Notes under the pieces: model-generated
What the model saw: the letters and a program-made list of their open reading frames with translations, nothing else
The model's database searches: none
Told to the model about the DNA's origin: nothing
Assembly (NCBI GenBank): GCA_038087875.1
Contig: CM075987.1
Location: 25,794,001 to 25,858,000 of the forward strand
From: Malacoraja senta
Lineage: Eukaryota
Length of the DNA stretch: 64,000 bases
Direction of reading: 5' to 3'
Made by a program: the position numbers and the translations under genes
Part shown: in pieces, positions 30,518 through 50,851 of the stretch
How the letters are laid out: every line of letters begins with the position of its first letter
Position numbering within the stretch: position 1 is the stretch's first letter

Positions 30518-31305
30518 TGGGCGGCACCGTTGCGTAGTGGTGGGGTTGCTGCCTCACAGCGCCTCAGACCCGGGTTCGATCCCGACTACGTGGGCTGTCT
30601 GTACGCAGTTTGTACGTTCTCCCCGTGACCTGCGTGGGTTTTCTCCCAGTCTCCAAAGACGTACAGGCATTTAGGTTCATTACTTACTTACTAACTTACT
30701 GCCTATTATGCCTCCTGGCATGTAGGGCAGCAAGGAAGGTCCTCCACTCCTGTCTGTTCTGGGCTAGCTTCTGGACACTACCCCAGGTCAGGTCCATTGT
30801 TTTCATTTCCTCCCCTACAGTTTGACGCCAGGTGGTTTTGGGTCTCCCACTTTTCCTTTTCCCTTCCAGTGTCCAGTGCAGGACCATTCTTGGGATGCTG
30901 TCTGGTACATTCATCCTAGCATCTGTCGATAGCCCTGGAAGTCCATCACGCCCAGTAGTGTTGATTCCTGCAGTTGCTGTTTCCGTAACATATTTGTTTT
31001 ACGAGACAGGGTTGTTAGCCCCTGTGCTCAACCTCCAACCTGGAGGACCAGTGGATCGCTCTTCGTCTCGCCTCTACCCTTCGACCTGTCCAGCATGGGA
31101 GACCCTAACAGGAGACGAATCTCCCGCTGGCCTAGCTCTAAGGGGTCACGGAGACACACACGCTCCCCGACAATGACAAGGTTGCAATCCACGGGGAGAT
31201 TTAGGTTAATTGGCTTGATATAAATGTGTGTGTAGAGTAGTGTAAATGTGCGGGGGACCAAAGGGCCTGTTGCCACGCTGTACTCTAAGCTAAGCTGAAC
31301 TAAAC
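30518..31305 (+). mobile_element. HE1-like V-SINE interrupted by an RTE derivative
   Basis: Halves flank 30682-31198. Confidence 0.85.
30682..31198 (-). mobile_element. Bipartite non-autonomous RTE element (5' UTR fused to ORF C-terminus)
   Basis: RTE-type 5' end; W..EGKRKSGRPKTTWRQTV..LAQNRQEWR..* C-terminus; (TAAG)n tail; TSD ATTTAGGTT(C/A)ATT. Confidence 0.85.
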
Positions 31306-31319
31306 GATGTATCAAGAGT

Positions 31320-31578
31320 TGTGTAGGAAGGAACTGCAGATGCTGGTTTAAACCAAAGATAGACTCAATCAGCTGGAGTAACTCAGGGGGGACAGGCAGC
31401 ATCTCTACGGAGAAGGAATGGGTGACGTTTCGGGTCGAGACCCTTCTTCAAACTTGTTAGGGATAAGGGAAACGAGTGATATAGATGGTGATGCGTAGAG
31501 ATAAAGAACAATAACTAAAAGATATGCAAAAAAGTAACGATGATAGAGGAAGCGGTCCATTGCTGGCTGTTTGTAGGT
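31320..31578 (-). mobile_element. Penelope-like 3' UTR and terminal repeat
   Basis: Matches 36695-37097. Confidence 0.8.
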
Positions 31579-49981: not shown

Positions 49982-50188
49982 TGTAGGAAGGAACTGCAGA
50001 TGCTGGTTTCAACCGACGATAGACACAAAATGCTGGAGTAACTCGGCGGGACAGACAGCATCTCTGGAGAGAAGGGATGGGTGATGTTTTGGATCGAGAG
50101 GCTGAAGGGTCTCAACCCGAAACATCACCCATTTCTTCTATCCAGAGATGCTGTCTGTTCCTGCTGAGTTACTCCAGCATTTTGTGTC
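49982..50188. mobile_element. Penelope-derived palindromic element (subfamily A)
   Basis: Tail plus inverted arms. Confidence 0.8.
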
Positions 50189-50247
50189 ACTATTTCTAAT
50201 TTTATGTATTTGAGATGCCCCATTTATCGATGTGTCAAATGTCCTCT

Positions 50248-50677
50248 CTGTGGATTGTCACCTTGTCGTGGTGGAGAAGCTTGTGTGGACCTGAGATCCT
50301 GAGAGCGATGCTGTCTGGAGCTCTGCTCCTGGTAGGGCCACCTATGGTGGTGAGGTCGAGGGGGAGGTCTCTGACAAAGAGCAATCCGACCAAGGCCTCA
50401 ACGGTGGAACAGGCGGAAGACGATGGCTGACCTTAGTGGAGCGTCACAACGGCTGGGAAGGCGGATGAAGGCTGCAGCAGAAAAGGGTCCCCGGTTGTCT
50501 TGGACTCCATGCCACTGGATCCTGACCCAGATCTGTCAAGGACCGTGGGGTGGCTGTCTGTGCACCAGTCTCCCCACGTTAAACAAAGTCACGCACAGGC
50601 GTCCTCCATATAGGGAATAGCACCCTGGAGACACACATGGTCAGCCACGACCGAAGGGGGGCTAAGAAAAGAAGAAG
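50248..50677 (+). mobile_element. Non-autonomous RTE (Expander/BovB-type 5' end) derivative
   Basis: GGATTGTCACCTTGTCGTGGTGG..TAGGGCCACCTA..GACAAAGAGCAATCC head; (AAG)n tail; TSD TGTCCTCT (50240-50247, 50678-50685). Confidence 0.8.
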
Positions 50678-50851
50678 TGTCCTCTGCCCCCACCCCAATC
50701 CTATTCATAGGTTCCATATTAGGTTTTAACAGTTACTATTTCATCTAAGGCATCCTAAGATTTGAAAAACAACAATTTGTGAAACAAGCTGTAAAATTTG
50801 TTTCACTACTTGTATTTAGCGTTGACTTGAAATCTAAATGCAAGTATATGT

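What the first reader, a model, noticed from the sequence alone, without database searches (positions are those of the whole stretch)
31051..31192. Covarying ~140-nt RNA fold shared by two divergent RTE derivatives (with 50252-50387): candidate ribozyme or IRES
Seen: copy A (minus strand here) and copy B (plus, 50252-50387) differ in sequence but keep the same helices by manual pairing. Closing stem GGATTGC/GCGATCC vs GGATTGT/GCAATCC; TTGTC/GACGA vs TTGTC/GACAA; GTCTC/GAGGC vs GACCT/AGGTC; GACC/GGTC vs GATC/GGTC; hairpin GGAGA-TTCG-TCTCC vs GGAGC-TCT-GCTCC; hairpin GGG-TCT-CCC vs TAGG-GCCA-CCTA. The domain starts within a few nt of each element's 5' TSD. Established: some RTE elements carry 5' HDV-like or twister ribozymes. 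I could not fit this fold to either by eye. Inference: a structured cis RNA kept even when the ORF is deleted, possibly an uncharacterised self-cleaving or translation-initiation motif.
Basis: partly seen in the sequence, partly recalled or inferred. Interest (0 to 1): 0.75.

Follow-up and report, generated by a model that had tools for sequence, protein, structure and literature searches.

The report
HDV-like ribozyme heading RTE-type retrotransposons
The shared 140-nt fold is real, and once the first seven bases of each element are added it has the double-pseudoknot layout of a hepatitis-delta-like self-cleaving ribozyme, a known way for such mobile elements to cut their RNA free.

Summary
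Both stretches are 5' ends of two high-copy, short, internally deleted retroelement families, A and B. A stringent core pattern matches 1279 times in the genome against 0 in the control.

Target-site duplications show that the elements start at window 31198 (minus strand) and about 50243 (plus strand). With those bases included, the RNA has HDV-like topology:
- P1 is the element's first 7 nt, paired with the 7 nt directly after a 3-bp P3 and 7-nt L3.
- P1.1 is a single G-C pair.
- P4 is a branched domain of about 95 nt.
- A conserved C followed by purines sits just before the 3' strand of P2.

I found a third, low-copy lineage (C) at the 5' end of near-full-length elements with endonuclease and reverse-transcriptase sequence. 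It adds compensatory changes in P1 and P2. On 5+5+5 copies, 96% of cells pair, 13 pairs changed on both sides, and P1 is 100% paired with 4 double changes.

No Rfam family matches, and cleavage is untested. Both window copies are decayed.

Verdict: a new member of a known kind. HDV-like ribozymes at RTE 5' ends are already in print. Confidence 0.72, interest 0.45.

The parts
30678..31198 (-). Element A: a 521-bp internally deleted derivative of an RTE-type non-LTR retrotransposon, ending in a (GTAA)n-like tail.
   Evidence: The 9-nt TSD AACCTAAAT lies on both sides.
31199..31207 (-). 5' target-site duplication of element A (AACCTAAAT). Its 3' copy is at 30669-30677.
   Evidence: The TSD ends immediately before the first base of P1.
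31053..31198 (-). Ribozyme-like domain, copy A (decayed). The J1/2 linker is 1 nt shorter than in the family majority.
   Evidence: The covariance model matches end to end, E 1.3e-33.
31192..31198 (-). P1 5' strand, CTCCCCG. The predicted cleavage site is 5' of base 31198.
   Evidence: Pairs with 31163-31169, CGGGGAG.
31184..31190 (-).
   Evidence: Pairs with 31053-31059, GCGATCC.
31170..31182 (-). P3 (ACC) / L3 (TTGTCAT) / P3' (TGT). The family majority has TTGTCGT and GGT, so this copy has lost one P3 pair and carries a G-to-A change at L3 position 6.
   Evidence: pair 20:28 is marked non-standard.
31163..31169 (-). P1 3' strand, CGGGGAG, directly after P3'. C at 31162 is the proposed P1.1 partner of the L3 G at 31177.
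31066..31161 (-). Branched P4 domain: stems 45-49/126-130, 53-56/114-117 and 69-73/106-110, plus two hairpins. It holds the ATG of a 22-codon upstream ORF (31096 down to 31028).
31060..31065 (-). J4/2, CGAAGA. The C at 31065 sits where HDV-like ribozymes have the catalytic cytosine.
   Evidence: Column 135 is C in the majority of all three lineages. Its role is inferred.
31053..31059 (-). P2 3' strand, GCGATCC.
30696..30914 (-). In-frame fusion ORF of element A. The start region of the main ORF (M-N-V) is joined to the last ~70 codons of the retrotransposon ORF.
   Evidence: compared with the near-full-length copy L093.
50243..50677 (+). Element B: a short non-autonomous element with an (AAG)n-like tail. 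A candidate 8-nt TSD, TGTCCTCT, lies at 50240-50247 and 50678-50685, so its first 5 bases may be target DNA.
   Evidence: The TSD reading is my inference from the sequence.
50243..50387 (+). Ribozyme-like domain, copy B.
- P1 5' strand: 50243-50249
- P2 5' strand: 50252-50258
- P3: 50260-50262
- L3: 50263-50269
- P3': 50270-50272
- P1': 50273-50279
- C of P1.1: 50280
- P4: 50281-50374
- J4/2: 50375-50380 (C at 50375)
- P2': 50381-50387
   Evidence: The covariance model matches end to end, E 1.7e-35, with P1 pair 2:36 marked non-standard.

Best explanation
The module is an HDV-like (hepatitis-delta-type, nested double pseudoknot) self-cleaving ribozyme. It forms the first ~145 nt of RTE-type non-LTR retrotransposons and of their short internally deleted derivatives.

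Proposed mechanism (inferred):
- The elements are transcribed as parts of longer host or read-through transcripts.
- The RNA folds so that its first 7 nt (P1) pair with the 7 nt just after the P3/L3 hairpin.
- The cytosine in J4/2 then catalyses scission immediately 5' of P1.
- This releases an RNA whose 5' end is the first base of the element, and that RNA is copied into new sites.
- Deletion derivatives need only this 5' module and the 3' end that the reverse transcriptase recognises. That explains why the fold survives loss of the ORF.
- The large branched P4, which holds a short upstream ORF start in lineages A and B, may also serve translation or protein binding.

Shown: the fold, its covariation, its place at element 5' ends, and the copy numbers.
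Inferred: catalysis, co-transcription, and any role in translation.

The two window copies are mutated relics. A has lost a P3 pair and changed one L3 base. B has a P1 mismatch and may be 5'-truncated.
For: 1. Topology. P1 is columns 1-7 with 31-37. P3 is 18-20 with 28-30, with a 7-nt L3. P1' directly abuts P3'. P2 is 10-16 with 141-147 and crosses P1. A single G23-C38 pair forms P1.1. A conserved C135 followed by purines lies just before P2'. This matches the family description in PMC3774820 (passages and section 16 read) and PMC3185411 (passages read: P3 of 3 bp, P1.1 of 1 or 2 bp).

2. Covariation. On 15 copies (5 from each of three lineages), 96.2% of 585 cells pair, against 36-50% when the partners are slid. 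Thirteen pairs changed on both sides. P1 has 4 of 7 pairs with double changes and is 100% paired. P2 was not part of the model that made the alignment. It is 99% paired and carries a lineage-level U-A to C-G change at 13:144.

3. RNAalifold, which was not told the model, predicts P1 and P3 on A+B and P1 in full on A+B+C.

4. A column-shuffle test on A vs B reached the observed covariation in 3 of 2000 shuffles.

5. A covariance model built from A+B only finds all 21 lineage-C copies searched. The hits run end to end, start at the first base of P1, and have E from 1e-21 to 4e-11.

6. Element 5' ends. TSDs of 9-14 nt end exactly before P1 base 1 in 13 family-A copies of 34 examined, plus the window copy. 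The same holds in 3 family-B copies, with a fourth ambiguous by one base. In lineage C, 24 of 39 non-self matches start exactly at that base and 34 of 39 within 2 nt.

7. A generic HDV-type descriptor, written after seeing the fold, gave 0 hits in the non-family sequence among the 686,758 bases scanned (both strands). It hit 34 locus-strands that carry the module.

8. The module heads a ~3.4-kb element with endonuclease and RT sequence and the near-full-length lineage-C elements.

9. Lineage C has no ATG or upstream ORF in P4, so coding constraint does not explain the conservation.

10. HDV-like ribozymes at RTE 5' ends are reported in the review PMC6765202 (passages read).
Against: - No Rfam family matches, including the HDV-type ones. 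There were 0 hits at gathering score on the window, nothing relevant at E<=10 on 801 nt, and 0 hits at E<=10 on 153 nt of a majority-like copy.
- The base pair at the cleavage site is C-G, not the G-U wobble that I recall for HDV and CPEB3.
- P3 pair 18:30 is A.A in all 5 lineage-C rows.
- P1.1, L3 and J4/2 hardly vary, so covariation says nothing about them.
- Only three lineages from one genome were available, and the A5 alignment was fitted to the nested part of the structure.
- Self-cleavage was not tested.
- P1' variants with single substitutions are mostly uncompensated, though their numbers fit random decay after insertion.
Confidence: 0.72

Rival explanations
1. The RNA has the same double-pseudoknot fold but does not cleave. 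It acts only as a structured 5' UTR element. For example, it could be a binding site for the element's reverse transcriptase, or a cap-independent translation start signal for the ORF about 190 nt downstream. The exact 5' end would then come from an internal promoter.
For: The fold is supported, but catalysis is not shown. P4 is large and branched, with its own covariation: 45-49/126-130 has 3 double changes and 69-73/106-110 has 2. It holds an ATG in lineages A and B. Other HDV-like ribozymes of retrotransposons are credited with translation and protein-binding roles, and L1Tc couples a promoter with its ribozyme (PMC6765202 and PMC8256844, passages read). No Rfam HDV-type model matches.
Against: The invariant strands are those that form the HDV-type active site: L3, the C after P1', and the C plus purines before P2'. 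P1 begins at exactly the first base of the element in three lineages. That is what cleavage predicts and what a UTR element does not require. The ATG is absent in lineage C.
Confidence: 0.13
2. One reading: a nested, non-pseudoknotted fold consisting of the closing stem, TTGTC/GACGA and the inner helices. This would be a new class of ribozyme or IRES unrelated to HDV.
For: All these helices can form in A and B. With that structure 95.4% of cells pair. No Rfam match was found.
Against: - The helix 21-25/133-137 has no change on both sides, and pair 24:134 is broken in 5 of 5 lineage-C rows.
- The reading leaves out the element's first 7 nt, which pair with 31-37 with 4 double changes and no broken cell.
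- Its good overall score comes from P2 and P4, which the HDV-like model shares.
Confidence: 0.05
3. The conservation reflects DNA-level or coding constraint, such as an internal promoter or the short upstream ORF M..RS.GR..TKS[DN]P. The apparent pairing would then be a by-product.
For: A and B share 9 of the first 15 residues of a short ORF that starts inside the module. L1Tc shows that the same 77 nt can act as promoter and ribozyme (PMC8256844, passages read).
Against: Lineage C has no ATG there yet keeps the fold. Thirteen pairs changed on both sides while staying paired. The shuffle test reached the observed signal in 3 of 2000 shuffles. The short ORFs of A and B stop at different places and lose all similarity after residue 15.
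Confidence: 0.05

Closest known systems
HDV-like self-cleaving ribozymes at the 5' ends of non-LTR retrotransposons (R2, R4, Baggins, L1Tc, RTE). Sources: Ruminski et al. 2011, not held here and cited through PMC6765202 and PMC3774820; Eickbush et al. 2013, PMC3774820.
   Same: - Nested double pseudoknot.
- A ~7-bp P1 whose 3' strand directly follows P3/L3.
- Cleavage predicted at the element's first base.
- Variable 5' junctions.
- P1 evolving by compensatory changes while the L3/P3/P1.1 region stays constant.
- A variable P4.
- Elements that lack their own promoter and rely on co-transcription.
   Different: - No Rfam HDV-type model detects it.
- The cleavage-site pair is C-G.
- P4 is a branched domain of about 95 nt.
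- The host is a 1.94-Gb genome of an unnamed eukaryote, with over a thousand copies on short deletion derivatives.
- Activity is untested.
R2 SIDEs, 'Short Internally Deleted Elements' (Eickbush & Eickbush 2012, PMC3414825, abstract read).
   Same: They are non-autonomous elements made of a 5' ribozyme joined to the 3' end of the parent by internal deletion. Hybrid forms join a ribozyme to a different 3' end, which may be a parallel for family B. Their 5' junctions are variable.
   Different: SIDEs are described as rare and restricted to rDNA in Drosophila. Families A and B are dispersed and abundant: 746 and 1401 first-look candidates.
CPEB3 and genomic HDV ribozymes.
   Same: Helix order and sizes are the same: P1 of 7 bp, P3 of 3 bp, L3 of 7 nt, and a C plus purines before P2'. 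P1.1 is weak, with one G-C pair. The details for CPEB3 and HDV are recalled, not tested here.
   Different: There is no detectable sequence or profile similarity. P4 is far larger. The G-U wobble at the cleavage site is absent.
Twister-variant ribozymes of Schistosoma non-LTR retrotransposons (PMC8501958, search listing and start of abstract only).
   Same: A self-cleaving RNA tied to non-LTR retrotransposition.
   Different: It is a different fold. No twister model matches here.

Membership tests
HDV-like ribozyme family | Five helices (P1, P1.1, P2, P3, P4) forming a nested double pseudoknot. | tested here: met
   The pseudoknotted structure is 96.2% paired on 15 copies of 3 lineages. P1 and P2 cross, and both carry double changes. 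P1.1 is a single invariant G-C pair, so it is neither supported nor contradicted.
HDV-like ribozyme family | An ~7-nt P1 anneals to ~7 nt (P1') immediately downstream of L3/P3, and this sets the cleavage site (PMC3774820). | tested here: met
   Columns 1-7 pair with 31-37, which directly follow P3' (28-30). Four of 7 pairs have double changes and no cell is broken. RNAalifold predicts this helix unprompted.
HDV-like ribozyme family | P3 of 3 bp closing a short L3 that holds a conserved G (PMC3185411, PMC3774820). | tested here: inconclusive
   A and B have ACC/GGT with the 7-nt L3 TTGTCGT. In lineage C, pair 18:30 is A.A in 5 of 5 rows, leaving 2 bp. L3 differs at one position, and the G residues are kept.
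HDV-like ribozyme family | A catalytic cytosine in J4/2 just before the 3' strand of P2. | tested here: met
   C at column 135, followed by GAA or AAA, is present in the majority of all three lineages. Copies without it show CpG-type decay. Only its position was tested, not its chemistry.
HDV-like ribozyme family | Site-specific self-cleavage 5' of P1. | not testable with these tools
   Indirect support only: genomic 5' ends of elements coincide with P1 base 1.
HDV-like ribozyme family | A match to a curated HDV-type covariance model in Rfam. | tested here: not met
   0 matches at gathering score. Nothing HDV-like at E<=10 on 801 nt. 0 matches at E<=10 on 153 nt.
HDV-like ribozyme family | A G-U wobble at the cleavage-site pair. 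I recall this for HDV and CPEB3. It is not stated as universal in the papers I read. | tested here: not met
   Pair 1:37 is C-G in 13 of 15 rows and U-G in 2.
RTE clade of non-LTR retrotransposons (host element) | A single long ORF with an apurinic-type endonuclease followed by reverse transcriptase, a very short 3' UTR and a simple-repeat tail. Clade placement needs an RT tree. | tested here: inconclusive
   RVT_1 (E 1.6e-17) and DUF6451 are found in L092, and a weak Exo_endo_phos_2 match (E 0.0041, below the cut-off) in L093. The stop codon lies ~20 nt before a (GTAA)n-like tail. No tree was made, so the RTE label rests on recalled hallmarks.

The most novel reading that the evidence does not exclude
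This is a distinct, vertebrate-type subclass of HDV-like ribozyme. Its large branched P4 would be a second functional module. P4 evolves by its own compensatory changes, and in two lineages it buries the start codon of an upstream ORF. It could be a ribosome- or reverse-transcriptase-recruiting domain, so that folding, self-cleavage and translation start of an uncapped RNA are coupled in one 145-nt unit. With over a thousand copies spread through the genome, many inside host transcription units, intact copies could also cut host pre-mRNAs.
Probability: 0.2. Interest if true: 0.65.

Novelty: new member of a known kind. Interest (0 to 1): 0.45.

Why it matters
If the RNA cleaves, this genome carries over a thousand copies of a self-cleaving ribozyme that current Rfam models do not see.

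That would explain three things:
- how promoter-less RTE-type elements and their SINE-like deletion derivatives obtain exact 5' ends;
- why the 5' module is retained when the ORF is lost;
- how dispersed copies might cut the host transcripts they sit in.

It also gives three natural sequence variants with compensatory changes, which suit mutational study of a long-P4 HDV-like ribozyme. A covariance model of the nested helices (R1), together with the P2 and P1.1 pairs defined here, could be used to look for the same module in other genomes.

It does not open a new class: the ribozyme type and its link to RTE elements are already published.

Tried and rejected
- **Rfam scans**: no family matched. 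tRNA, 5S, 7SL, twister, hammerhead and HDV-type models are therefore not supported as the origin of the head.
- **Earlier notes of this scan**: nothing on this genome or sequence.
- **Pattern ACCTTGTCNTGGTW**, meant to find other lineages: 321 hits against 318 in the control, so noise. Only a few decayed A and B copies turned up.
- **Sequencing runs**: no listed holder is on record as RNA. Words of family B occur in runs under several organism codes.
- **Reads** (one RNA raw-read run under another organism code plus three contig runs).
  - No place where many molecules begin or end was reported.
  - 98 reads run on across the first base of P1 into a single flank, which points to one dominant locus. 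That locus carries a G-to-C change that makes a C.C mismatch in P1, and most of its reads have the first mate on the + strand. The RNA strand is therefore uncertain.
  - I treat this as inconclusive for cleavage.
- **Contig runs:** they show the B module nearly unchanged and add no covariation.
Smaller requests followed.
  - L091 ran into a contig end.
  - L092 is a 5'-truncated element without the module.
- **Patterns for P1' variants** (23 and 35 hits), with 19 short stretches fetched.
  - 8 of 10 copies with the A33-to-T change keep T5, so they are uncompensated.
  - 0 of 5 copies with A36-to-C are compensated.
  - 2 of 4 copies with A36-to-T have A at P1 position 2.
  - The counts are what random decay of about 1% per specific change would give among over 1279 copies. 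They say nothing either way.
- **Protein atlas**: RT/DUF6451 clusters only, with no clade name.
- **Papers not held:** Ruminski 2011, Webb 2009, and Webb & Luptak 2011. Their descriptor and their list of RTE ribozymes could bear on novelty.
- **Literature search for HDV-like ribozymes with fish terms**: none of the 15 listed papers contains the phrase 'HDV-like ribozyme'. This is not proof that the module is unpublished.

Full report
**What is at the coordinates**

The minus strand of 31051-31192 and the plus strand of 50252-50387 align over about 140 nt and then diverge. On a cleaner alignment of family members they are 71% identical, with 42 differing columns out of 147.

Both are 5' ends of repeated elements. 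A DNA search of the window's own 1.94-Gb assembly gave 746 first-look candidates for copy A and 1401 for copy B. The 40 scored matches in each case were 94-96% identical. A stringent pattern joining two conserved cores across a 90-130-nt gap matched 1279 times against 0 for the reversed control. All 100 listed matches were of type A or B. Comparing 30 copies of each family shows short elements: most A copies are about 290-530 bp and B copies about 400-430 bp. A covariance model finds only these two copies in the window.

**What the elements are**

Copy A spans 30678-31198 on the minus strand. It is flanked by the 9-nt duplication AACCTAAAT and ends in a (GTAA)n-like tail about 20 nt after a stop codon. 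It holds a 100-codon open frame whose last ~70 residues recur across the genome, with 158 matches.

Some of those matches lie in long frames. One of them, L092, has RVT_1 (E 1.6e-17) and DUF6451 but is 5'-truncated. Searching with its endonuclease fragment found about ten close copies. One lies 718 nt downstream of a type-A module that the pattern search had already listed. It lies about 2.1 kb upstream of a match to the C-terminal piece.

That region, L093, shows the full order: the module, a ~190-nt leader, a start region M-N-V, then the endonuclease. Window copy A is therefore an in-frame internal deletion that joins M-N-V to the last ~70 codons.

The RTE label fits these hallmarks, but I made no tree. 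Family B shares only the 5' module and has a different (AAG)n-like tail.

**Where the elements start**

In 13 of 34 family-A copies examined, an exact duplication of 9-14 nt ends immediately before the C of CTCCCCG. The window copy does the same once its 1-nt shorter linker is allowed for. Family B shows this in 3 copies before CTTCTCC, plus one copy ambiguous by a single base. The first one to three bases vary among B copies, as expected for junctions of this element type.

**The fold**

Those first 7 nt are complementary to the 7 nt that directly follow a small hairpin, ACC-TTGTCGT-GGT:
- lineage A: CTCCCCG with CGGGGAG;
- lineage B: CTTCTCC with GGAGAAG.

The order is:
1. P1 5' strand
2. 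1-2 nt linker
3. P2 5' strand
4. 1 nt
5. P3
6. L3 (7 nt)
7. P3'
8. P1'
9. a C that can pair with the third base of L3 (P1.1)
10. a ~95-nt P4 domain
11. a C followed by purines
12. P2'

This is the layout given for HDV-like ribozymes. P1 anneals to the ~7 nt immediately downstream of L3/P3 and thereby sets the cleavage site (PMC3774820, passages and section 16 read). P3 has 3 bp and P1.1 has 1 or 2 bp (PMC3185411, passages read).

RNAalifold cannot draw pseudoknots and was given no hint. It still predicted P1 and P3 on the A+B alignment, along with a further P4 helix carrying two double changes.

**Is it more than chance?**

Folding energy alone is weak: z = -3.17 for copy A and -1.12 for copy B. 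The covariation is stronger. A and B share three stems of at least 5 bp with at least two double changes each, a result reached in 3 of 2000 column shuffles.

I also wrote an HDV-type descriptor: a 7-bp P1, a 6-8-bp P2, a 3-bp P3, a 7-8-nt L3 with fixed U and G, a one-pair P1.1, and C-N-R-A before P2'. It gave 0 hits in the non-family sequence among the 686,758 bases scanned on both strands. It hit 34 locus-strands that carry the module. I wrote the descriptor after seeing the fold and partly from memory of HDV, so it measures specificity and is not independent evidence.

**A third lineage**

The endonuclease search also returned a tier of matches at 41-48% identity. I fetched 650 nt upstream of four of them. 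Three (L094, L096, L097) carry a homologous module at the point where their mutual similarity begins.

This lineage C is low-copy, with 54 first-look candidates. Of 39 non-self matches, 24 start at exactly the first base of P1 and 34 within 2 nt. I fetched eighteen more copies.

Lineage C has:
- P1 CCTCTCC with GGAGAGG, a new C-G at pair 2:36;
- P2 GGACTGC with GCAGTCC, so pair 13:144 is C-G instead of U-A;
- L3 TTGACGT;
- the same C after P1';
- C-GAA directly before P2';
- new pair types in the P4 stems;
- no ATG in P4.

A covariance model built from A and B alone, with only the nested helices, found all 21 lineage-C copies searched. The hits ran end to end and began at P1 base 1.

On the model-made alignment of 5+5+5 copies, the pseudoknotted structure is 96.2% paired over 585 cells, against 36-50% when partners are slid. 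Thirteen pairs changed on both sides. P1 is 100% paired with 4 double changes. P2, which the model did not contain, is 99% paired. RNAalifold on this alignment again predicts P1 in full.

**Results that do not fit, or are open**

- No Rfam model matches.
- The cleavage-site pair is C-G.
- P3 loses a pair in lineage C.
- The active-site strands are invariant, so they carry no covariation signal.
- An alternative pairing, 39-42 with 134-137, would include the proposed catalytic C.
- The one RNA raw-read run shows no pile-up of 5' ends at P1 base 1. It shows 98 reads running through into one flank. These come from a dominant locus with a C.C mismatch in P1, and the RNA strand is uncertain. I count this as inconclusive.
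- Single-substitution P1' variants are mostly uncompensated, but their numbers fit random decay after insertion.

**State of the two window copies**

- Copy A lacks one linker base, has a G-to-A change in L3, and has lost a P3 pair.
- Copy B has a C.A mismatch in P1. It also has a candidate TSD, TGTCCTCT, that overlaps its first five bases, so those may be target DNA (my inference).

Both are probably inactive relics of active families.

**Comparison with what is known**

[quoted passage not shown] They are held to free promoter-less elements from co-transcripts and to help translation (PMC6765202, passages read; Ruminski 2011 is not held here).

Compensatory evolution of P1 with a constant L3/P3/P1.1 region, variable 5' junctions when cleavage is at the element's end, and a highly variable P4 are all described for R2 (PMC3774820). 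Non-autonomous elements made of a 5' ribozyme plus a 3' end are described as R2 SIDEs (PMC3414825, abstract read).

This module works like these and meets the structural tests. It fails the profile test against Rfam and has not been assayed. I file it as a new member of a known kind.

**Verdict**

| Item | Result |
|---|---|
| Observation | confirmed |
| Best explanation | HDV-like ribozyme, confidence 0.72 |
| Interest | 0.45 |

Noticed in passing
window 31028-31096 (-) and 50345-50432 (+): A short upstream ORF starts inside P4 in lineages A and B. The peptides (22 and 28 residues) share 9 of their first 15 residues and then diverge. Lineage C has no ATG there.
   Followed up: partly
window 30696-30914 (-): Copy A's internal deletion is in frame. 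It joins the first three codons of the main ORF to the last ~70 codons, giving a 72-codon open frame. Other family-A copies use different deletion junctions.
   Followed up: partly
window 31000-31052 (-); L094:425-480; L093: Just downstream of the ribozyme, lineages A and C share a conserved leader (CTGGTCCTCCAGGTTGG... followed by a GGGG..CCCC hairpin-like stretch). Lineage B lacks it. It may be a second structured element of the 5' UTR.
   Followed up: no
window 49982-50188 and 31320-31450: Very abundant short repeats lie just upstream of both elements, with up to 76-90 matches among the 60 fetched loci. They hold a motif of the type CTGCTGAGTTACTCCAGC. They are probably a SINE family unrelated to the finding.
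   Followed up: no
L003/L004, L045/L046, L053/L054, L036/L056: These are pairs of element copies with identical flanks, so they are segmental duplications rather than independent insertions. Copy counts overstate the number of insertion events.
   Followed up: no
L048:1499-1915 (family B): In the one RNA raw-read run, most reads over the element come from a single locus under another organism code, and they read through from its upstream flank. Contig runs under at least three other organism codes hold the B module nearly unchanged.
   Followed up: partly
L092:3372-3746 (-): A fragment of a second, unrelated reverse transcriptase (motif FADDTK) lies next to the truncated RTE-type copy.
   Followed up: no
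family A, base before the element start: The base just before the element start is T in 20 of 30 family-A copies, and it belongs to the target-site duplication. This suggests a target preference of the endonuclease.
   Followed up: no
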